Source of the DNA: the human T2T-CHM13v2.0 reference genome, Homo sapiens
Assembly (NCBI RefSeq): GCF_009914755.1
Contig: NC_060928.1
Direction: 5' to 3' (one strand)
Length of the DNA: 64,000 nucleotides
Positions 50,649 to 64,000 of this stretch are shown piece after piece. How positions within the stretch are numbered: position 1 is the stretch's first letter; the number at the start of each line of letters is the position of its first letter. Under the pieces are notes generated by a model, which was not told the origin of the DNA, did not search any database, and saw nothing but the letters and a program-made list of their open reading frames with translations. A program made the translations under genes and the position numbers.

Positions 50649-51269
50649 AGTGTATTTTTTCTCGTTACCTTTATAAAATAGCTAATTATTAGAATTCAAC
50701 TTCTGATAGTAGCTGAAATATACAAAACAAATCAGACTTCGCATGCTTCAGAATTTATTTTATTACATTTGATTCTACTCTCCCCACAAAGGTCAAAGAA
50801 AAGCATCTGATATGAACATTGGGCTACATCTTCACTTAAAAAGGTTCTTGTAAAGAAATAGCAAATTCTCATAACAAGCTTGTTTAAAAAAATTCAAATG
50901 GAAGTTATCCTAAAATAGTTTTGCAACTACTTAAAAAGTCTGCAAATAAATGATTACAAGTTAATACGACAAAATGCTGCCAATTAAAATAGAACACCTT
51001 ATTTTTCACCTCTCTTCTAAAGTATAACATTGCCTTCAAAATAAGTCACGTCTTATTTAAAAGGCCATCAAAAGGATCGTCGGCGTAAAAATTATGAGCA
51101 CCACCACCAAAAAAAAAATGTATCTATATATTTGCATACAGCGCTATTCAAAGAAAAAGATCGTAATGCTAACCCGCAAACAGCCAGCGAGATGTATTGC
51201 AAGCCAATTTTTCCTCTCACAAAAGTGTTAAAGAGAGCCAGACAAAACGACGAAGCTTTCGCGATGAGC

Positions 51270-51850
51270 CGCATTAAAATCGCGGTTTCCCGTACTCGGA
51301 GCAGAGGCCTGGCAGGGCCGCCCATAGCGTTGTGCGCCCCGGGTTCCGTTCCCTACCAGGCCAGGTGACGTCCGGGTGCTCGCCGCTCCTCACCGCGCCG
51401 TATGCTGAGCACCAGCGAACGCCAGGCCCGTGCACGTCCAAGCGCGGTCTCTGTCCGGATCCCCCATGGCCCCCAGGTCCCGCTTTCTGTTCCCGGCCCC
51501 GGACGCCCGCGGCCAGTTCTCCGCGACCCTGAGAATCAAGAGCCAAGCATCGGGTAGGAGCTGCTCACCTTGGTCTGGGCCTGGCGGCGCCCGCAGAGCC
51601 GGTCCTGGACCGAGCGAGGAGGAGGGGCTAATAACAGAGGCGGAGGGCGGTTGCTAGGAAACAGCGTCTTCGGGAGGAAGTGACTTCCCCACCGCCGGGT
51701 CTCTCGGGTACCCAACACCGCTCTTCGGCCCAACGTGTCGCTGGGGCAACCACCCAGACGAAGGAAGTGACATCACCTTCCTGGGTCTTTGGAGAGGGGC
51801 TCATTATTGGTCGCTTGTGTGCATGTGCTGTTGCCTAGGAGACAGGACCC
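51270..51850. promoter_or_regulatory. CpG island / MAP9 promoter with X-box, ETS and CRE-like motifs
   Basis: Abrupt GC- and CpG-rich stretch in AT-rich DNA around exon 1. GTTGCTAGGAAAC 51650-51662, GTCGCTGGGGCAAC 51737-51750, GTTGCCTAGGAGAC 51830-51843, GGAAGTGACTTCC 51676-51688, GGAAGTGACATCA 51763-51775, TGACGTCC 51366-51373. Confidence 0.9.
51569..51763 (-). other. MAP9: MAP9 exon 1 (5'UTR, non-coding); 5' boundary approximate
   Basis: Strong donor CAAG|GTGAGC at 51569/51568 inside the CpG island; no ATG in the exon. Confidence 0.75.
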
Positions 51851-52867: not shown

Positions 52868-53833
52868 GTCCACTCATCTGTATCCATTTATGAAGCTGAA
52901 AATGTACACCACCTCTACACACACATACCCAGAATAGAAAATGCTCCCTATTTTCTATTAACTCATGGCACTACTGTTGAACCCTTCCAGGTTCACCTCA
53001 TGCTCCTGGAACCTCCTTTCCACTGTAAAACATTCTCTCACTTTTTCCTCTATAATCGCATTCTTATCTTAGCTAAGCAAAACTATTTTCTGAATAAACT
53101 ATCTCCCTGAGGGCTTTTCAAATAGGGACTGCTGTAGAAGGAAGATTTCTAAGTTCTCCTAGGTCCTCACATACTCAGTGACTGCTCTCCTATTACTCCA
53201 AACCCTTCCTCCTCACAAGCCAATATTCTATGTTCTATTTCTCAGTTTCTGTCATCAATAGATATATAGGCCCTTCTCCCACATTCACTGAATATCTACA
53301 GCCAACCTATCCAATACCTGAGATCACACCAAGGTATGGTGTGGCCATGTTCCATTCAATAGAATTCTTTGCTCAATACTCCAAGACTTTCACTTGTCCA
53401 TACCCCTAATTGTGGGGCTCCGTACTGGAAGTCTTAAACTGTAATACTCCACTCCAAAAGGCCCATGGCTTCCTTTTTTAGTTATTCTTCTCTTGTTATT
53501 TCTATTTAGGAACTCATCAAGACATCTAGACTCTTTTTTTTTTTTTTTACTTTTTCTTTCTTTCTTTTTTTTTTAATGCATGTATCTCATCTAAGATGTC
53601 CAGACTCTTGAGCTTTTCACATCTTCCCCCAATTTATCAGTTGCTCTCTTTGCTTCCTGCTTCCCTTTCCTAGCTAGCCCAAGTCCCACAATGTAGCTTA
53701 TGGAGTTCTTTCTTCAGCACTTTCAACTTTCTCACTTCATCATTCCTCTGGGACACAAAACTTGTCCATTGATCATCCAAATTCTTTGACCCAACGTATT
53801 TCAGAGTAATAGTGCATCAATCCCAGCTTACAA

Positions 53834-53953
53834 TTTTATTTTATTTTTAGAGACAGGATCTCACTTTTTTTGCCCACTACTGGGCTCAAGCGATCCTCCT
53901 GCCTCCATCTCCCCAAGTGCTGGGATTACAGCCATGAGCCACCATGCCCGGCC
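53834..53953 (-). mobile_element. FLAM / partial Alu
   Basis: Monomer-length Alu sequence. Confidence 0.8.
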
Positions 53954-54277
53954 CCAGCTCGCAACTTTCTGTGTGACCTCAGGTATGTTACTTAGACACT
54001 CCTAACCCCAGTTTGTGCATTCATAGGTTGGGATAATACCAACCCCTTCCAGTGCCATTTTAAAGATTTCATACAATACTTTGCACAAATACATATGATA
54101 AAATTATTTCCCCACTCAGGACAGTGCCCAGTAGAGCTGGTGAGTCAGTAACTGTGGTTCCCCCGCTTTCCCTCTCCTTACCAAGCTCACCTTCCACCTT
54201 CCCTCTAATTCCCGTCCCTATTCTCTTTCATGTGTTTACGTGCCTGTCTCTTCCACTAGAATCAGTTTCTTAACAGC

Positions 54278-54480
54278 AGCAGTTTCTCAAAATTGACAGT
54301 TTGAGCAGAATCATTCTTTGCTGTGGGGGCTGTCCTGTGCATAGTAGAATGGTCAGCAGCATCCCACTCTCCACCCCACTAGATGCCAGTAGCACCCTCC
54401 AAGCTGTGACAATCAAAAATATCTCTAGACATTGTCAAATATCCTCTGAAGGACAAAATCACCTCAATTGAAAACCACCG
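54278..54480. mobile_element. MER20 DNA transposon
   Basis: tgtgggggctgtcctgtgcat...agcagcatccc...ccactagatgccagtagcacc...gttgaaaacca-like end. Confidence 0.85.
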
Positions 54481-54964
54481 CACTAGAGTAATGGCTATCA
54501 AACTTTTTTGAACAAGACCTACAATAAGAAACATTTTGTACATGTATATACACACACAGTATGTGAAATAACTTCATCAAATCATTCTTTCCCTTACGGT
54601 GTCCCACTCTGATATGTTCTATTCTGTTTAAAAAACAATGACTAGACTGAGCCTCAACAAGAATAGTAATCTTATCTGTTTCATCTTTACACTCACAGTA
54701 CCTAGGCAAATTTTGTGGCACACAAGAGGAACACAAATACTTGTTAAATTGCAATGAATAATCATTTCTGGTAGTCAATAAAGAGTTTTAGTTAACAGAA
54801 GAAAAACAAAAATTCAATTTGTTTTCTGGTTGTGCCGTGTTCAAAATTGAACACCACCCTTGGCAGCTTCCAGGAGAAAAAGTTCTTCGCCTTTGCTCTA
54901 AAATATTCTGTAGCCTAATCAATGTGAGCAAAAGGCAAAAATCTACTAAGGTATAAAATGTTTT

Positions 54965-55210
54965 TATATACTACATATATAATGTAGTATATATGTATAC
55001 TGATTATACATATATGATGTATACATAGTATATATGTATACTGTACATATGTACATAGTATATATGTACACTGATTATATATATACTACATATGTAATGT
55101 AGTATATATGTATACATATATATGTATATATGATTATATATGTGTATATATATGTATATATAATCATATATATATACAACATATAATCATTTTATGATTA
55201 TATACTACAT
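54965..55210. repeat. AT-rich low-complexity / palindromic TA repeat
   Basis: tatatactacatat(a/g)taatgtagtatata occurs twice within TA runs. Confidence 0.85.
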
Positions 55211-55545
55211 AGATAATCATGTGTGCACTAGGCAGTGACCTAAAATGCCAATGACTATGGCCAAATTACTGACAGATACAAGCCTGTGACTTAAGCCAGC
55301 CACTCAGAAGAAATAAGCCTCCCTTTCCTTGGAGACATTTTCTAAAACTATAAAAATAAAAGGCAGAAATTAGTACATATTCATGTAACAACTACCCCCC
55401 TCCCTAAAATAACTTCTGTTGTATAAAACCCAAAGATTAAAAACTACAACATTGGATAGAAAAGCTGAGTCTTTCAATAAAAAGAGGAATGGGACAAATA
55501 AACTCAACATTTTTTTAAAAAAACACTCATCATTTTTCCTGAAAG

Positions 55546-55830
55546 TACAATAGTTCCTCCTTATCCAAGAGGGATCCATTTGGAGACCCCCCCAGTGCAT
55601 GTGCTGAAACCATGGATAATACCAAATCCCATATATACTATGTTTTGTCCTATGCATACATACCCATGGTAAAGTTGAATTTATAAACTAGGCTCAGTAA
55701 AAGATAAATAACAGAATAATTATAACATACTGTAATAAAAGTTATATGAATGTAGCTCTTTTTCTCTCAAAATATCTTATTGTACCGTACCATAGGTAAC
55801 TCACACTGTGGATAAAGGGGGACTACTGTA
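55546..55830. mobile_element. MER44-like (Tigger7) MITE
   Basis: TIRs taca(a)tagttcctccttatcca ... tggataagggggactactgta. Confidence 0.8.
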
Positions 55831-55949
55831 CAACAATCTCACCATTTGCCAATATTCCCGAACCGGTTTTAGCTTTTCTCCTCCTCCCTTGTTTGTTTCT
55901 TTTGGTTCAATGCTGCTGATTATTCTCTAAGAGGCTCTTCTAGCTCCAA

Positions 55950-57192
55950 TCACATTCTTATATCAACAGATAGGAGGTTCTTCAACTGACAGCTACACAT
56001 CCACCCCTGCTACTTTCTTCATTGCCTCCACAGTTTCTATAAGGAAAAGGCAAAATCTTCATACCTGCAGAATTAGCGCCACATAGATGCTGCCAAAGGG
56101 TTTTCTGCCTGTGCCCTCTGGAGAGGTGACATCACATCCCCCACTGCACCAGGGCCCATTGAGCAACACTTGGAGCAACCAAGGGGTGCCACACCAGAAT
56201 GTGGGGACCAGTGACTTCAGGGATTGCTGGGAAGCAAGCCCCAAGGTCCCCAGGGCACCCTAGGGCCTTCCTTGGAAACTGTACTGCCCTCAATGCTCTG
56301 GCAACATGGTCCTGTGATGAGAGTGCAGCCCAAGCAATTTACAAAACACCTTCCGGGTTGCTCTTTCATTGTCCTGGTGAAGAGTACAGTCCTGATCCAT
56401 GTCTCCTGATTCACAACCTTTGTGTTCTCTCCCACACTTTATTTGTTAAAATATGGACAGGCTGAGAAGAATAAAAATTTCCCAAATCTTTAAGTTCTGC
56501 TTCCCTTTTGATAACTTCTGTCTCTAAATCATTCCTCTTTTCTTTCATTTTCCCATACACATTCAAGAGAATCAAGCTGCTCCTTCAATACTTTGCTTAG
56601 ATATTTCTTCTAGCAAATTTCAGTCTCATTATTCATAAGTTCTGCCTTCCAGAAAACACTTGGGCATGAACACAATGCAGTCAAGTTCTTTGTCACTTTG
56701 TGACAAATGTCGCCTTTCCTCCAGTTTCCAATAACATGTTCTTCATTTCCATCTGAGACTTATCAGAATGACCTTTCTTTTCCATATTCTTTTTTTTCTT
56801 AAGAGACTGGGTCTCCCCTATGTTGGCCAGGTTGGTCTTGAACTCTTGGCCTCAAGCAATCCTCCTGCCTCAGCCTCCCAAAGTGCTAAGATTCCAGGCA
56901 TGAGCCACCACACCCAGCCCCCTCCATATTCTACAAACATTCTATCCAGCTCTCCTCATCTGAGCTCTCACCAGAATCACCCTTAATGAAGAGTCACAAG
57001 GAGAAGACAGCCACCCACACCTCAGGAGACAGGCCTGGAAAAAAGCCTTCCTGCACCGCCCTCAGAAGGGACCCGCTTGCTGACAACTTGATCTTAGACT
57101 CATGGCCTCCAGTAATGTGAGACAGTAAGATTCAGTTGTTGAAGGTGCCTAGTCTGTGGCCAGTCTGTAAGACAGCCCTAGCAAACTAACAC
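55950..57192. mobile_element. MaLR internal fragment plus MLT1 LTR piece, with a FLAM at 56789-56918
   Basis: gccttccagaaaacacttgggcatgaacacaatgcag... (MaLR-int-like); ttgatcttagactcatggcctccag...cagccctagcaaactaacaca. Confidence 0.6.
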
Positions 57193-57499
57193 AGCCTGTT
57201 AGCCCACGGATGGTGAAAAGATGGAGTGCGCAATGGAGCTCCAGGCTTACTGTCTGCAGTTCCCAAAGTGTGCTATGGGACCCTTTGGTGGATGTAGGTA
57301 TGAAAGATAATTTTGGGTGGTGCAGGGTGAATAATTTCAGTTTACATAATAATGTAAGTTCACAAGCTTCCTGGGGAACCTAGTGACATGAAGGCACTGC
57401 AGAGCCTCCCCAGAAGAGGTGTCAGCTTTTGGTGGATCCTTGAGCCCAGGAAGGCAATAGGCGAGACATCACCGTTCACCAGAAAACACGATCAAAATC

Positions 57500-58902
57500 C
57501 ATTGAGGAAGGGCAGCAGTCAAAGGTTTTATTCTCTAGAAGGAACTCTCAAGAACTGCAAGCAGCAGGCAGAAGACTTCCTTGCATGTGTGGTTAGGCGA
57601 TGGTGACCTACGGTTTTCACTGCGAACTGGGATCGAGTGACCCGACCTCCTACTCATGCACCTCTCTCCCTGTCTCTCTCTGCCTTTTAGTCTCTCTTCC
57701 TATTTCTCTCCCTACTCTTCCTCTCAGGCTCCTCTGTCTCTCTCCCCATCTCTCTTCCTCTCTCTCTATCTCACTCCCTTCTCCCCATCTCTTTCTGTCT
57801 CCTTCTTCTCCACTTCTGTCTCCCTCCTCCTCTCCCTCTCTGCAGCTGTTCAGGCAGGACTCCTAGGCCACCTTTCAGGGTACCTGCAGGGCAGCAGGAC
57901 CTTGGCCCCCATCTCCCAGCACCCTCAAGGTCAGGGGTGTGCGCCTTTCCATGCTCTCCTGGGTGGGCACCCCACACTCCAGGAAGCAGAAGCTGCAGGT
58001 CACTGCTGACTCGAGTGGCACACCGACGGGGTGCTTCCACTTGTAATTGTGACTTCCATCTTGTGATCTGCTGAGGTCAAAGCAGAGGACACATGCTCAG
58101 GCCGGACCCTGCACCAGGGTGGGGGTAGGGGTGGGTTCGGGGGTAGAGGCGGGGATGGCAGCAACCACTGCAAACTGTCCCCTGGCCGGCTTCCTGTCCT
58201 TCACCTGCCATGCAAGGCCCCCTCTCCCGCCCCTCCCCCCGCCTCCCACCACCTCCACCCCTAGGCAGCCCCAGACCCCGGCTCCAGAATTCCCCCTGGA
58301 TCCAGGAACTAAGAGCAACCCATGGGCTCTGCAGCCCCTAGGCCAGGTGTCAGCTGCCCCTGCTGCATGCTGAAAAACCTTGGCTCTCACTTATGCCCCG
58401 ACCCAAGCCAGCCACACACCCCCAGCGTAACCACCTTCTCCTGACTTTAGCCCTGACATCCCTGCTTTCTAGTAATCCCCAGCTCCAGGCAAGCCCGAAG
58501 GCCAGCACCCTACACTCACCCTTCCTGGGTGCCACTCTTGTCTGCTTGCCAAGATGTCTTGATCTGGCTTTATCAGCATAGAACAAATAAAGGGCCTCTC
58601 CCAGGAAGGTTTGGCAAAACACTCTCCATTTAGAAGCAGGGGCAGTGACAAGACCTAGGGATGACCCGAGGTTTGCCACTCAAGCAGCAAGAAGGGCAAG
58701 GAGCCAGTTTCATGTCCTCATCCTGGAAGGATGGCCAGGGCTCCACAGGGTCCTGTGGGGGGCTGGCAGGAGCAGATCTGCCCTCCTCTTGAGGAAGCAG
58801 GCCACCACCACCAGGAAGCAACAGATGGTAGCGTACAGGTAGAGCCCCCACGTGCTGTAGAGCAGGGCCAGCAGATCTGCACTCAGCCCAGCCCCAGGGG
58901 AG
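57500..58902 (-). pseudogene. Unprocessed partial TNFRSF13B (TACI)-like pseudogene: exon 4 homolog 58722-58902, intron, exon 5/3'UTR homolog ~57500-58067
   Basis: Translates to LSADLLALLYSTWGLYLYATICCFLVVVACFLKRR (TACI as I recall it: [35 protein letters not shown]) and TCSFCFLECGVPTQES / PDLEGAGRWG (TACI: TCSFCFPECRAPTQES / PDPTCAGRWG). GA-rich 3'UTR and AATAAA at 57527-57532. Frameshifts present, and the exon-4 donor reads ATGAG. Confidence 0.85.
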
Positions 58903-58923
58903 CTGCAAGACAGACTGAGACCC

Positions 58924-59265
58924 CGATAGGTTTGGCTCTGTGTCCTGACCCAAATCCCATCTTGAATTGTAATCCTCATGTGTCAAGGGAGGAACCTAGT
59001 GGGAGGTGATTGGATTTGGAGGCAGTTTCCCCCATGCTGTCCCCCTGATAGTGAGTGAGTTCTCAGGAGAGCTGATGGTGTTAAAATGTGGCACTTTCTC
59101 ATTTTCCACTCACTGCCTCCTGCCGCCTTGTGAAGAAGGTGCTTCCTCTTCACCTTCTGCCATGAATGTAAATTTCCTGACTTGTGAGTCAATTAAACCT
59201 CTTTCCTTTATAAATTACCCAGTCTCAGGCATTTCTTTATAGCAGTGTGAAAACAAACTAATACA
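58924..59265 (+). mobile_element. THE1 solo LTR
   Basis: (c)gataggtttggctctgtgtcc...gcagtgtgaaaacaaactaataca; 5-bp TSD gaccc at 58919-58923 and 59266-59270. Confidence 0.9.
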
Positions 59266-60094
59266 GACCCCTTCTCTGAAGTGTCTTCTCCTTGGGCCAT
59301 CAGCTGCCCCCATGCTCTTCCTCTGCCCCATGGTCTTCCTTTTCCCCTCATTCGGCCCAAGTGCTCCACATGGCCAGCCCCAGCCCCATCCTACTGCAGG
59401 CCTGTCTGGCTGGTGGAGAGGCTGGGCTCCTTTCCTGACCCCAAGGATGGCTGACATGCTCTTTGGATCTTGGAGGAAACTGACCTCCCACCCTCATACT
59501 GGTAGCAACTTCTTCCAAGACCCCAAAGCTGGACCATATGAGCTAGTCTTTTTTGTTGTCTTTGCTTGCTAGGGCTGTCATTGGGACAGGCCTTGCCCAG
59601 GAAGCCCATGTGGACCGCGACACCAGGCCCTGCCCAGACCCATCATGACTAAGAGGGAGGTCGGGAGATACCCCCGCTGCAACATGGGCACCTGCATCTG
59701 GCCCCGTTGGTGGCCAGTGACTGGCATGCCTGGAAGGAGCCAGGGTAGCACCCCACCAGCTGCCCCGCAGCCCCAGACACCTTGGAAAATCCTGTTCAAT
59801 GGGAAGCTGGTTTCATTAAGGCCATGAGAGAGAAAGGTGAGCATGGTATCCCTGCAGCCCCGGCCAGCCAGCAGCATGCCCTGGGGCCTCTGTCCCAAAC
59901 TGTGCCCCTCTCTTCCCAGGGCCTAGACCCCGGCCCTGGGAAGAGAGGGGCACTAGGGGTGTGGTGGGCTCCCAGCTGCAGTCAGCATGACCATGCAGGG
60001 GACCCTGGCACTGTGGAGCTCTGTCATTGTCACAGTTCACCTCGCAGAAGCTGGGTGAGATCCTGAAGCCTTGCAGCCACTGCTATAGCCACAG

Positions 60095-60630
60095 CAGGGG
60101 CTGAGATTGGCTTTCACTGCACTGAGCCACAATGTGGACATGGACTAGCTCGCCCTACAGTGCACACAGCACTGCTTCCAACCAGGGCACCCCGTTCACA
60201 GCTAGGGACGTGCAGCAGTGTGCTCCCACCTTGAAGCCTTGGCTCTGCCACCTCTACTTGGAATGTTCTCAGTTCCTTCCAGGCTTCTAGAACCATCTGG
60301 GCCAGGGCTTATGGTTGGATAAGCACCCGAGGTCCCACAACCCAAACAAGCTTCCGATCCTCGTTTTATTTTTTGTTAAACTTATGAAAATTTATTAAGA
60401 TATGACTTACATCCCTGCATGTAAGTGTTCAGCTCAAAAGTCATTCAAAGATAGAACACACCAGCCCCCAGATCACAAAGCCAACCATGCCCAGCCCCTC
60501 CCAGTGCCCCTAGTCCTGCAACCAGTGTTCTGAATTCTGACAGCATTGTGAGCCTGCCTTTTGTACTTTACACTCATGGAAGTATAACCACCTTCCTGTT
60601 TTAAAATAAATGTTTACTTTTGAAATGATT
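60095..60630 (+). pseudogene. TBC1D3-like terminal-exon fragment (C-terminal coding relic plus 3'UTR with AATAAA)
   Basis: 60165-60290 encodes [41 protein letters not shown], resembling the TBC1D3 tail [41 protein letters not shown]. Followed by TBC1D3-like 3'UTR and aataaa at ~60605-60610. Confidence 0.8.
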
Positions 60631-60713
60631 TTAGAAATACACCTTCCATCCAGCTGCCCCTAATAATGACATTTTGCATTACCATGGCACATTTGTCAAA
60701 ACTAAGAAATTTA

Positions 60714-61011
60714 GGCTGGGTGTGGTGGCTTGCACTTGTAATCTCAGCAATTTGAGAGGTAGAGGCGGGAAGCTCAGGTTTGCTTAAACCCAGGAGTTTG
60801 AGACTCGCCTTGGCAATATGGATAGACCCTGTCTCTAGAGAAAAGTAAAAGAAATTAGCTAGGCATGGTGGCATGTGCCTATAGTCCCATCTAGTCAGGA
60901 GGCTGAGTGGGAGCATTGCTTGATCCCAAGAGTTCCAGGAAGCAGTGAGCTATGATCACACCACTGCACTCCAGCCTGGGTGACAGAGTGAGACTTTGTC
61001 TCTTTTAAAAA
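60714..61011 (+). mobile_element. AluJ within an old L1M fragment
   Basis: Diverged full Alu; taagaaa(t/c)tta-like TSD. Confidence 0.88.
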
Positions 61012-61217
61012 ATTAAGAAACTTAACATGGGTGCAATCCTATTGACTACATGATAGTGTGAACTATTATCTAAGGTTATTAATGCAGTAATTATGTTAAT
61101 ATGGTGAAATTTTTTCAGATTTCATCCGTTTTTGCCCAACTTCCCATACCTGTTCCGGGATCCCACCTCGGACTCACCCTCTGCCTTTAGGTCATTTCTC
61201 CTTAGCTTCCTCCAGAG

Positions 61218-61802
<585 letters not shown>

Positions 61803-62124
61803 AACATTTCAGGCCACACAGAAGGCTCAATTCCCTGCATCCCTACCCCCAGGTAAACTCTATCACTGGAGATTAGTTTGCCTGACCATAACTTTACATA
61901 AATGGAATCACATATTGTCTATTCTTATAGGTCTAACTCAATATGAGGTTGTGAGATTCATTCATGTTGTAGCCATAATTTATTCATTTTCTTTGATGTA
62001 TAGTATTCTAGTCTCGAATGTACCATGGGTTTTTTTTTTTTATCCATTCTTCTGTGAGATATTTGGGAAGTTTCTAGTTTGAGGTTATTACAAATAGTGC
62101 TGCTATGAACGTTGTTTTACTTGT

Positions 62125-62495
62125 TGTATTAGTCCGTTTCACGCTGCTGATAAAGATATACCCGAGACCAGGCAATTTACAGAAGAAAGAGGTTTATTGG
62201 ACTTACAGTTCCACATGGCTGGGGAGGCCTCACTAATATGGCAGAAAGCAAGAAGGAGCAAGTCACATCTTATGTGGATGGCAGCAGGCAAAGAGAGAGC
62301 TTGTGCACAGAAACTCCTGTTTTTAAAACCATCACATCTCATGCGACCCATTCACTATCACGAGGACAGCACAGGAAAGACTCACTCACATGATTCAATC
62401 ATCTCCCACCCAGCTCCTCCCACCACACGTGAGAATTATGGGAGTTACAAGATGAGATTGAGATTTGGGTGGGGACACACAGCCAAACCGTATCA
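62125..62495 (-). mobile_element. THE1 solo LTR inserted in an old L1ME fragment
   Basis: tgtattagtccgtttcacgctgctgataaagatatacccgagac...cagccaaaccgtatca; TSD cttgt on both sides. Confidence 0.92.
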
Positions 62496-62669
62496 CTTGT
62501 ATTTTAGTGAAGATATAGACACATCTGTGTAACGTACATGTGCAGGGTTGAAATTGCTAGTTCGTGGCAGGCAAATGTTTAGCTTTGGTGAATATTGCCA
62601 AATCAAAGTGTTTGTTCCACTTTACCTGCTCATCTGTGAGCCAGAGTGTTCCATCAACAGTTTGAGCTG

Positions 62670-62840
62670 TCTAAGAAGGACCTGAGTTCAATCCCATTCA
62701 ATCACATAGTAGCTGTGTCACTTTGGGCAAGCCATGTAACTTCTCTGAGCCTCAGTGCTCAGTGTCCTCATCTGTAAATTGGGCTGATGGTGGTCCTTAC
62801 CTCGCAGGGCCGCTTTAAGGACTAAGTGAGATGAAAGCTG
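62670..62840 (+). mobile_element. MIR
   Basis: gctgtgtcactttgggcaagccatgtaacttctctgagcctcag. Confidence 0.75.
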
Positions 62841-63731
62841 ATACCCCAAGTGACAACACTTCTCCCTCCCTCAGATTCAATAGGATGACATCTTCACTGC
62901 CCAATGTGAAGGCCATGGGGAGGACTCGAAGCCCCAGAGTTCCCCTGTCCCAGGAGCATAAGCCTTGGATTTTTGCTTTCAAAAACAACCACCTGTAGGA
63001 TCAGGATGGCTCTCAACTTCCCCAAATCTGTGCTCCCACCCCATGAAGGTGACGTGTTCAGCAGCGGGGAAGGGACTGCATTGTGCCAGCCTCACCCTGC
63101 CCACTGTCTGTCCTCATGACTTGAGCCCAGCTAGTTCCCCAAGCAGAGCAGTGCAGGGTCCTGCCCCGGCCATGGGCTCCAGACATCCGGGCCACCACTA
63201 CCTGTTCCTACCCTGCTGCCTCCATCCCTCAGCCCCTGCTTGCCTCCTTCACAGCTCAGGTTGTCTTAGCTTTTTACCTGTCTCCATGGTCTGTCTCATC
63301 AAGGGGAGAGCAGCACAAGGGAAGGGACTCTGTCAGTCTAGGGATGTGTCTCCAGTGCGTGGGAGAGATTAGCAGCTCAATACACACTTGCCCAGTGTCT
63401 GTGTGCATCTCACTAAGCAGAAGACAGCTTTGGAGATGAGAAGAGACCCTCCTGAGGTGACAGTCCTTAGCTGGCATTTCCCAAGTATTCTCAGCATGAC
63501 AGGTGCTGAGCCGGACCATGGACATAGGAGCTCTGGAAACTGTGGGGTACCGGATTACAGGTGTGAACCACCATGCCTGGTCAGAAGTATTCTTTATTTC
63601 TTTTTTAAAATTTGTACTTTCTGAGTTTATGTAACTGGCATGTACTGCTTTTGTAATTAGAAACAGAAAACGTATAGAGAAAATGTGTAGAAAAAAGCAG
63701 AAAACCAAATCACATCTACAATAAAATCCTA

Positions 63732-64000
<269 letters not shown>

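What the first reader, a model, noticed from the sequence alone, without database searches (positions are those of the whole stretch)
60112..60290. TBC1D3-like relic keeps a 43-bp segment between TGCAC microhomologies, and the downstream 41-codon frame is already open
Seen: TGCAC at 60118-60122 and again at 60161-60165, exactly 43 bp apart. Deleting between them gives ..[14 protein letters not shown]...Q-F-L-P-G-F*, 41 codons (60165-60287) ending at TAG 60288-60290. The undeleted frame reads LSHNVDMD*. From memory of the literature (not verified here): human TBC1D3 copies differ from other primates by a 43-bp deletion in the last exon that replaces a short tail with a novel ~41-aa tail. Inference: this paralog shows the pre-deletion state, points to microhomology-mediated deletion as the mechanism, and suggests the 41-codon frame and its stop existed long before that deletion recruited them.
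Basis: partly seen in the sequence, partly recalled or inferred. Interest (0 to 1): 0.8.

Follow-up and report, generated by a model that had tools for sequence, protein, structure and literature searches.

The report
Old TBC1D3 fragment keeping human-deleted 43 bp
This stretch is the tail end of an old, broken copy of a TBC1D3-family gene that still holds the 43 bases that the working human TBC1D3 genes have lost, and it shows that the loss lies between two short repeats and exposed a reading frame that was already there by chance.

Summary
TGCAC sits at 60118-60122 and 60161-60165, 43 bp apart. The frames read as stated. The recalled literature is right: Guitart et al. 2024 report a 43-bp terminal-exon deletion that swaps 17 residues for 41.

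In this genome, 9 of 9 chr17q12 cluster copies lack exactly the 43 bp between the two repeats. Eight other copies, chr4 included, keep them.

A 5-bp junction homology occurs in only 0.1-0.3% of possible deletions here. But the nearest undeleted copies read TGCGC on the right arm, which leaves 1 bp of exact homology. The microhomology mechanism is therefore likely, not proven.

The 41-codon frame and its TAG are old. They are open in 6 of 8 undeleted copies. That matches neutral simulation, with P(at least 6 of 8) about 0.37-0.40 and no codon-position bias.

The chr4 piece is not a retrocopy. It lies in a duplicated block of about 16 kb shared with chr17:28.37 Mb. It lost 13.8 kb of gene body at an 8-bp repeat.

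The pseudogene and the deletion are both known. The breakpoint repeats are a small addition.

The parts
52870..64000 (+). Chr4 side of an old duplicated block that is collinear with chr17:28.355-28.382 Mb. It continues past the window end to about window-equivalent 69100. It contains chr4-only inserts at about 54760-58541 and 62125-62494.
   Evidence: blastn: 52870-54000 at 85.8%, 54013-54759 at 90.4%, 58542-59593 at 83.7%, 60096-62124 at 84.0%, 62495-63919 at 82.3%, then onward to about 69099.
59582..59589 (+). TGGGACAG, the junction where chr4 lacks the 13.8 kb that holds the gene body in the chr17:28.37 Mb paralog. The same 8-mer stands at both edges of that 13.8 kb on chr17.
   Evidence: The chr17 segment 28357848-28371649 is homologous to a TBC1D3 cluster copy at 38996000-39001408.
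59582..60090 (+). Segment of the ancestral terminal-exon region (a unit of about 450-500 bp). It is kept in the old paralogs and in more distant family members. It is absent from TBC1D3 proper and from the copy at the USP6 position.
   Evidence: The unit tree places chr4 in a 100/99 clade with four gene-bearing copies.
60090..60101 (+). Junction of a second gap. Chr4 lacks about 415-428 bp that the chr1 and chr17:28.37 Mb copies have. Junction homology is only about 3 bp.
60096..60290 (+). Homologue of the last part of the TBC1D3 coding terminal exon.
   Evidence: 86% identity to cluster copies over 240 bp, and a tblastn match to the human tail.
60118..60122 (+). Left TGCAC arm.
   Evidence: Conserved in 8 of 8 undeleted copies.
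60123..60165 (+). The 43 bp that are missing from the 9 human cluster copies. Placement is ambiguous by 5 bp. The segment includes the right TGCAC arm at 60161-60165.
60146..60148 (+). TAG private to the chr4 copy. It cuts the canonical tail short. The other seven undeleted copies read TTG, TTC or CTG here.
60165..60290 (+). 41-codon alternative frame plus TAG, homologous to the human-specific TBC1D3 tail.
60291..61264 (+). 3' flank shared with TBC1D3 proper, the copy at the USP6 position and the 17q23 copies.
   Evidence: 77.5-78.5% identity over about 1.14-1.2 kb.

Best explanation
Window 60112-60290 is the 3' end of the terminal exon of an old, dead TBC1D3-family paralog. The paralog arrived on chr4 as part of a DNA-level duplicated block of about 16 kb. 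It then lost its whole gene body, 13.8 kb, at an 8-bp direct repeat, and a further ~0.4 kb. Like every copy outside the two chr17q12 clusters, it keeps the ancestral 43 bp.

In the lineage leading to the human cluster copies, one deletion removed the 43 bp between two TGCAC repeats. The most likely route is annealing of the short repeats, either microhomology-mediated end joining or replication slippage. The deleted allele then spread to all cluster copies by duplication or gene conversion.

Because 43 = 3x14+1, translation shifted into a frame that was already free of stops for 41 codons and already ended at the same TAG. That frame was open through neutral chance in GC-rich sequence, not through selection.

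Shown here: the position and size of the deletion, its polarity, the age of the frame, and the structure of the relic. Inferred: the repair mechanism and the single origin. Odds for the separate claims: location of the deletion at the repeats 0.97; relic is a gene-body-deleted duplicate 0.93; frame old and neutral 0.8; microhomology-mediated mechanism 0.65.
For:: in a 17-copy alignment, 9 of 9 cluster copies carry an identical 43-bp gap at the TGCAC pair, with no inserted bases.

a genome-wide pattern census finds 9 deleted junctions, all at chr17 37.11-37.43 and 38.92-39.05 Mb, and 8 undeleted ones.

passages of Guitart et al. 2024 describe a 43-bp deletion that loses 17 residues and gains 41. 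The translations reproduce both numbers.

the tree (17 rows, 1143 columns) gives (copy at USP6 position,(17q23 pair, 9 cluster copies)) with 100/100 and 99/97 support. All outgroups are undeleted, so the event was a deletion on a short branch of length 0.0069.

junction homology of 5 bp or more occurs in 0.12-0.14% of distinct 20-100-bp deletions and in 0.14-0.28% of 43-bp ones.

the alternative frame is open in 6 of 8 undeleted copies, and the TAG is kept in 7 of 7.

simulated P(chr4 frame open) is 0.55-0.57 and P(at least 6 of 8 open) is 0.37-0.40. Variable columns by codon position are 13/15/17.

the flanks are collinear with chr17:28.37 Mb. The 13.8-kb gap is bounded by TGGGACAG.

six more distant family members run from the gene body across the junction point. 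Chr4 nests in a 100/99 clade of gene-bearing copies.
Against: The two undeleted copies closest to the cluster copies (chr17 60.9 and 63.1 Mb) have TGCGC as the right arm. On that background the observed junction has only 1 bp of exact homology, and 25% of random deletions have at least 1 bp. By branch length alone, the A-to-G change is more likely to lie on the shared stem (0.027) than on the 17q23 stem (0.0044). That would give the progenitor the imperfect arm.

All 9 deleted copies also differ from all 8 undeleted ones by a G for A three bases upstream of the left arm. The event may therefore not have been a clean annealing.

No hairpin favours slippage: z is -0.3 to -1.2.

The simulation ignores indels, uses a majority-rule ancestor and an arbitrary root, so its probabilities are rough.

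No ape sequence could be examined. The paper's Fig. 4B and Supplemental Fig. S8 were not readable.
Confidence: 0.75

Rival explanations
1. The 43-bp loss was an ordinary end-joining or other deletion on a TGCGC right-arm background. The resemblance to a TGCAC/TGCAC event is partly coincidence: 3+1 bp of interrupted homology, or 1 bp exact.
For: The two nearest undeleted paralogs read TGCGC. Exact homology on that background is 1 bp, and 25% of random deletions reach that. Branch lengths favour the A-to-G change on the shared stem. An extra A-to-G change lies 3 bases upstream of the junction in 9 of 9 deleted copies.
Against: The product reads TGCAC, which is exactly what a perfect-repeat event gives. 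TGCAC is the state in 5 of 8 undeleted copies, including the copy at the USP6 position. Even 4 of 5 matching bases placed exactly at both breakpoints is unusual.
Confidence: 0.25
2. The 41-codon frame was kept open by selection, for example as a formerly or alternatively translated frame, before the deletion recruited it.
For: The frame is open, with the same TAG, in 6 of 8 undeleted copies that are up to ~0.17 substitutions per site apart.
Against: Neutral simulation gives at least 6 of 8 open in 37-40% of runs. Variable columns are spread 13/15/17 over the codon positions. One copy has a stop and one lost 98 bp. An in-frame TGA stands just upstream, inside the 43 bp, in 7 of the 8 undeleted copies. 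The exception, chr1:245.9 Mb, reads CAA there. A read-through of 41 codons or more is found from 16-18% of arbitrary positions, and 36% of shuffles are open.
Confidence: 0.05
3. Chr4 is an 'empty site'. Under this reading a gene body was inserted into chr4-like non-coding DNA, which then supplied the end of the TBC1D3 terminal exon. TGGGACAG would be a target-site-like duplication.
For: The 8-bp repeat is present once on chr4 and twice on chr17. A preprint introduction (passage read) says only 13 of 14 TBC1D3 exons match the proposed parent USP6NL. No ancestral paralog has been identified (passage read).
Against: Six more divergent family members (chr17:16.87 Mb, chr19 twice, chr6, chrX, chr11) run continuously from the gene body across the junction point. 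In the unit tree chr4 shares a 0.10-long stem, with 100/99 support, with four gene-bearing copies, and further gene-bearing copies lie outside that clade.
Confidence: 0.04
4. The relic is a processed (retrotransposed) pseudogene of a TBC1D3 mRNA.
For: About 415 bp present in the chr1 copies is missing at 60097-60101. At first sight this looked like a removed intron.
Against: The missing piece is exon-region sequence in the family, not an intron. Homology continues for about 9 kb downstream and about 6.7 kb upstream, which is far beyond any transcript.
Confidence: 0.01

Closest known systems
Human-specific 43-bp terminal-exon deletion of TBC1D3 (Guitart et al. 2024, Genome Res 34:1798, PMC11610581; passages read)
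   Same: Same event. It is 43 bp, in the terminal exon, loses 17 residues and gains 41. It is restricted to clusters 1 and 2 and absent from the orphan paralogs. My alignment and translations reproduce every one of these numbers.
   Different: The paper's text has no occurrence of 'microhomology'. In the passages I read it gives no breakpoint sequence or mechanism and no statement that the 41-codon frame pre-existed. 'Chromosome 4' as a human locus does not occur. I could not see Fig. 4B or Supplemental Fig. S8, and these may show some of this.
LOC100420289, 'TBC1 domain family member 3C pseudogene' (RefSeq row supplied with the finding, 59685..60287 +)
   Same: Same locus and strand. The 3' end of the annotation coincides with the end of the 41-codon frame.
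   Different: Only 60096-60290 is homologous to TBC1D3 proper at the DNA level. The stretch 59685-60090 matches a segment that TBC1D3 proper has lost. The true homologous block is about 16 kb, not 0.6 kb.
Undeleted 'orphan' TBC1D3-family copies in the same genome: chr17 at 5.03 Mb (the USP6 position, a name assigned from recall of its location), 28.37, 42.18, 60.9 and 63.1 Mb, and chr1 at 15.4 and 245.9 Mb
   Same: All keep the 43 bp and the left TGCAC. Chr4 groups with the chr1 copies and the chr17 28.37 and 42.18 Mb copies.
   Different: Chr4 alone among the copies I examined lacks the gene body, and it has a private TAG at 60146.
Microhomology-mediated deletions (alternative end joining or replication slippage; established knowledge, recalled)
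   Same: Short direct repeats stand at both breakpoints, one copy is retained, and there is no filler DNA. The relic's own 13.8-kb loss shows the same pattern with 8 bp.
   Different: The mechanism cannot be observed after the fact. Perfection of the repeat at the time of the event is unproven.

Membership tests
TBC1D3 gene family (pseudogene fragment) | DNA homology to the TBC1D3 terminal exon and 3' flank | tested here: met
   78.1% identity over 1143 bp to cluster copies and 85.3% over 1712 bp to chr17:28.37 Mb. Alignment.
TBC1D3 gene family (pseudogene fragment) | Placement inside the family tree | tested here: met
   Chr4 lies in the old paralog group, with a 100/99 clade in the unit tree.
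TBC1D3 gene family (pseudogene fragment) | Exons encoding the TBC/RabGAP domain | tested here: not met
   The 13.8 kb of gene body is absent. A TBC1D3 copy matches chr4 only from 60161 to 61264, apart from Alu-like hits.
TBC1D3 gene family (pseudogene fragment) | Intact canonical reading frame | tested here: not met
   A private TAG at 60146-60148 leaves 8 of the 17 ancestral tail residues.
Processed pseudogene | Homology limited to the mature transcript, with introns precisely removed and a poly(A) tract | tested here: not met
   Homology runs from window 52870 to about 69100. The missing 415 bp is not an intron.
Microhomology-mediated deletion | Direct repeat at both breakpoints of the undeleted state, one copy left in the product, and no filler | tested here: met
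   TGCAC is at both sides in chr4, the copy at the USP6 position, chr17 28.37 and 42.18 Mb, and chr1 245.9 Mb. The product reads TGCAC. Measured homology is 5 bp.
Microhomology-mediated deletion | The repeat was perfect in the immediate progenitor | tested here: inconclusive
   The nearest undeleted copies read TGCGC. No ape sequences are in the tools.
Microhomology-mediated deletion | Polarity: a deletion, not an insertion in the others | tested here: met
   All 8 copies outside the cluster clade keep the 43 bp.
New protein tail by frameshift into a pre-existing open frame | The frame is open, with the same stop, in copies that predate the event | tested here: met
   Open in 6 of 8 copies. 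TAG kept in 7 of 7. The majority-rule ancestor is open.
New protein tail by frameshift into a pre-existing open frame | The frame is preserved beyond neutral expectation | tested here: not met
   P(at least 6 of 8 open) is 0.37-0.40, and the codon-position spread is 13/15/17.

The most novel reading that the evidence does not exclude
The human-specific TBC1D3 tail is the by-product of a single double-strand-break repair at perfect TGCAC repeats. Under this reading the A-to-G change three bases upstream is the scar of an error-prone polymerase. The repair exposed a neutral open frame that had drifted without stops for tens of millions of years. The same terminal-exon region repeatedly lost DNA at short repeats: 43 bp in the human clusters, about 917 bp in the ancestor of TBC1D3 proper, and 13.8 kb plus 0.4 kb on chr4. 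That would make it a local hotspot for such deletions.
Probability: 0.3. Interest if true: 0.4.

Novelty: already known. Interest (0 to 1): 0.3.

Why it matters
TBC1D3 is a much-discussed candidate for human cortical expansion. Its authors propose that the human-specific tail is functionally important (passage read). Knowing that the tail arose from one 43-bp loss at a short repeat, and that the 41 new codons were a chance-open stretch of former 3' sequence with no sign of prior selection, frames the tail as newly born coding sequence. Any function it has must therefore have been acquired in the last few million years. This is a modest refinement of a published result, not a new phenomenon. 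The chr4 fragment adds one more outgroup, and a non-chr17 member that the passages I read do not mention.

Tried and rejected
1. Retrocopy reading. Rejected by the flank homology.

2. A 20-mer match at chr8:33.7 Mb to the undeleted right junction. It has no homology beyond the 20 bases, only Alu-like hits nearby, so I dropped it as a chance match.

3. Hairpin-assisted slippage. DNA folds of 69 nt around the segment in three copies gave z of -1.23, -0.84 and -0.28. No support.

4. 'Empty site' origin of the terminal exon. Disfavoured.

5. Reading the unit at 59589-59904 as a plain interspersed repeat. The scattered unit-only copies (chr9 three times, chr18, chr21, chr3) form one 100/100 clade, and six other copies carry the unit continuous with the gene body. 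It is therefore part of the family's ancestral terminal region. Whether it began as a transposon was not determined.

6. Protein-level match of the relic's upstream half to the TBC1D3 exon-14 translation. It is only a weak, gapped 35% alignment, and the last 45 residues drive it.

7. Ape sequences. None of the collections holds primates. The paper's supplements held here are 11 small spreadsheets, which I did not open. The figure PDFs could not be read.

9. Literature on the mechanism. 'TBC1D3' plus 'microhomology' gave 12 papers, of which 10 were listed. By title and abstract start, none is about this deletion. A second search gave 205 papers holding 3 of 4 terms, of which 15 were listed. It added only the 2026 preprint, which calls the change a 58-residue modification and gives no mechanism.

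Full report
OBSERVATION. TGCAC lies at 60118-60122 and at 60161-60165, 43 bp apart. In the frame of TTC-ACT-GCA (60113-60121) the text continues L-S-H-N-V-D-M-D and stops at TAG 60146-60148. The frame that starts at 60165 runs 41 codons to TAG 60288-60290. A stop-to-stop listing shows it open from 60126, and its translation is.

LITERATURE. In passages of Guitart et al. 2024 (PMC11610581), all expressed human TBC1D3 copies carry a 43-bp deletion in the terminal exon. It removes the last 17 residues common to non-human primates and adds 41 new ones. It is found in 850 of 896 cluster-1/2 copies and not in the older orphan paralogs. The word 'microhomology' occurs 0 times in that paper. A 2026 preprint from the same group calls the change a 58-residue modification and gives no mechanism.

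THE DELETION SITS EXACTLY AT THE REPEATS. The window's own genome could be searched. A search with 59685-60400 returned the family.
- An exact-pattern census found the deleted junction 9 times. All hits are at chr17 37.11-37.43 and 38.92-39.05 Mb.
- The undeleted left junction, with up to 3 mismatches allowed, was found 8 times: chr4, chr17 at 5.03, 28.37, 42.18, 60.88 and 63.13 Mb, and chr1 at 15.4 and 245.9 Mb. The chr17 5.03 Mb site is the position of USP6; that name comes from my recall of the map.
- In a MAFFT alignment of all 17 copies, the nine cluster copies have one identical 43-bp gap, which can be slid only within TGCAC. There are no extra bases at the junction.
- Translating a cluster copy from the genome gives a terminal open frame that ends in a 41-residue tail after ...F-A-A.
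- The 17q23 copies give a 17-residue tail after F-T-A. Both numbers match the paper.
- The tree of 17 rows (1143 of 1263 columns, GTR+G) recovers (copy at USP6 position,(17q23 pair, nine cluster copies)) with 100/100 and 99/97 support. All other copies lie outside. The event was therefore a deletion on the short stem (0.0069) of the cluster clade. Identical junctions argue for one origin.

HOW STRONG IS THE MICROHOMOLOGY ARGUMENT. I enumerated all distinct deletions in the ~1.1-kb homologous stretch of four copies. Those with 5 bp or more of junction homology are 0.12-0.14% for sizes 20-100 bp and 0.14-0.28% for 43 bp. On the backgrounds of the copy at the USP6 position, chr4 and chr17:28.37 Mb, the real deletion scores 5 bp.

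The caveat is important. The right arm is TGCAC in 5 of 8 undeleted copies, GGCAC in chr1:15.4 Mb, and TGCGC in the two 17q23 copies, which are the closest undeleted relatives. On that background the observed product needs a junction with 1 bp of exact homology, which 25% of random deletions reach. Parsimony cannot say whether the A-to-G change arose on the 17q23 stem (0.0044) or on the longer shared stem (0.027). Branch length alone favours the shared stem.

In addition, all 9 deleted copies have G where all 8 undeleted copies have A, three bases upstream of the left arm. This could be a linked substitution or a repair scar. DNA folding gives no hairpin that would favour slippage (z -0.3 to -1.2). 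I put the microhomology mechanism at about 0.65.

THE 41-CODON FRAME IS OLD BUT NEUTRAL. The frame is open, with TAG at the same column, in 6 of 8 undeleted copies. Chr1:15.4 Mb has a TAG at codon 7, and chr17:42.18 Mb has lost 98 bp. The TAG is kept in all 7 copies that retain the position. The majority-rule ancestor is open.

I simulated substitutions along the tree: 4000 runs for each of two models, with indels ignored and the root arbitrary. The chr4 frame stays open in 55-57% of runs, and at least 6 of 8 copies stay open in 37-40%. Variable columns fall 13, 15 and 17 on codon positions 1, 2 and 3.

From arbitrary positions in this sequence the next stop is 41 or more codons away in 16-18% of cases. 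36% of shuffles of the 123 nt are open. An in-frame TGA inside the deleted 43 bp closes the frame upstream in 7 of the 8 undeleted copies. Chr1:245.9 Mb reads CAA there and stays open a few codons further.

The canonical tail has its own history. The old paralogs read on to a TAG at the position of 60204-60206, giving 30 residues from F. A TGC-to-TGA change shortened the tail in the clade of USP6 and TBC1D3. Chr4 has a private TAG at 60146.

WHAT THE CHR4 PIECE IS. It is not a retrocopy.
- Homology to chr17:28.37 Mb runs from window 52870 to about 69100, which is past the window end, at 80-90% identity. Chr4-only inserts lie at about 54760-58541 (this holds the annotated YWHAEP4 pseudogene) and at 62125-62494.
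- At 59582-59593 chr4 lacks chr17 28357848-28371649. That 13.8 kb is homologous to the body of a TBC1D3 cluster copy. The junction lies in TGGGACAG, which stands at both edges on chr17.
- A second gap of about 415-428 bp lies at 60090-60101, with about 3 bp of homology.
- The stretch 59582-60090 matches a segment of about 917 bp that the old paralogs have and that TBC1D3 proper and the copy at the USP6 position lack.

I considered that chr4 might be an 'empty site' into which the gene body was once inserted. Two results speak against it. Six more divergent family members (chr17:16.87 Mb, chr19:16.17 and 19.89 Mb, chr6:29.4 Mb, chrX:51.75 Mb, chr11:1.69 Mb) run continuously from the gene body across that point. 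In a tree of the unit (17 rows, 500 columns), chr4 shares a 0.10-long, 100/99-supported stem with four gene-bearing copies. Loss on chr4 is the simple reading.

Chr4's end branch is 0.06-0.07 substitutions per site. At a recalled primate rate of 1-2 x 10^-9 per site per year this is some 35-70 million years. That fits the paper's statement that the family is confined to simians, but the date is an inference.

VERDICT. Every copy outside the two clusters shows the pre-deletion state. The mechanism is plausible but hinges on one base that only ape sequences can settle. The open frame is a neutral accident. The deletion and the pseudogene are both known. The breakpoint repeats, the neutrality test and the structure of the chr4 block are small additions. 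In the searches I ran, and in the passages I read of the two papers, none of these three points appears. The figures and supplements that I could not see may show the breakpoints.

Noticed in passing
window 60115 (base 3 nt upstream of the left TGCAC) and its homologues: All 9 deleted cluster copies read G here (TTTCGCTGCA) and all 8 undeleted copies read A. The change turns F-T-A into F-A-A. It could be a linked substitution or a by-product of the repair event.
   Followed up: partly
chr17 28371612-28372529 (homologue of window 59582-60096 plus the ~428 bp that chr4 lacks): TBC1D3 proper, the copy at the USP6 position and the 17q23 copies lack about 917 bp of the ancestral terminal-exon region that the old paralogs keep. 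The right edge of this loss lies about 75 bp upstream of the 43-bp deletion. This small region has therefore lost DNA repeatedly.
   Followed up: partly
window 59589-59904: A unit of about 450 bp has many copies at 60-73% identity. Copies on chr9 (three sites), chr18, chr21 and chr3 hold the unit alone and form one 100/100 clade. Copies on chr19 (twice), chr6, chrX, chr11 and chr17:16.87 Mb carry it continuous with TBC1D3-like gene-body sequence. This points to a wider, older TBC1D3-related family of pseudogenes. I could not name them.
   Followed up: partly
window 52870 (left end of the duplicated block): The block shared with chr17:28.355 Mb begins only about 1.1 kb from the annotated MAP9 transcription start (51763) and about 1.2 kb from the annotated enhancer 51216-51645.
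   Followed up: no
window 54760-58541: A chr4-only stretch of about 3.8 kb interrupts the duplicated block and contains the annotated YWHAEP4 pseudogene. Part of it (57521-58329) matches sequence directly abutting the truncated gene body at chr1:15.43 Mb at 77.5% identity. I could not tell whether this is a common repeat or shared history.
   Followed up: no
beyond the window, window-equivalent 69401-71700 (locus L027): Three pieces match chr17 28368490-28370147 at 88-94% identity. On chr17 this 1.66 kb is an insert inside the paralog's gene body that TBC1D3 proper and chr1:15.4 Mb lack. It is probably a shared repeat element, but I did not examine it.
   Followed up: no
L034 (chr17:16.87 Mb), homologue of window 60096-60200: This distant family member aligns through the 43-bp region but reads TGTAG and CCTAC where the TBC1D3 clade has the two TGCAC arms. 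Its homology fades near window 60200. The repeat pair and most of the 41-codon frame are therefore specific to the TBC1D3 clade. The alignment is of low confidence.
   Followed up: partly
L018 and L020 (chr17 39.04 and 37.11 Mb): Two of the nine cluster copies carry single-residue variants in the 41-residue tail, Q to P and C to Y. The other seven are identical.
   Followed up: no
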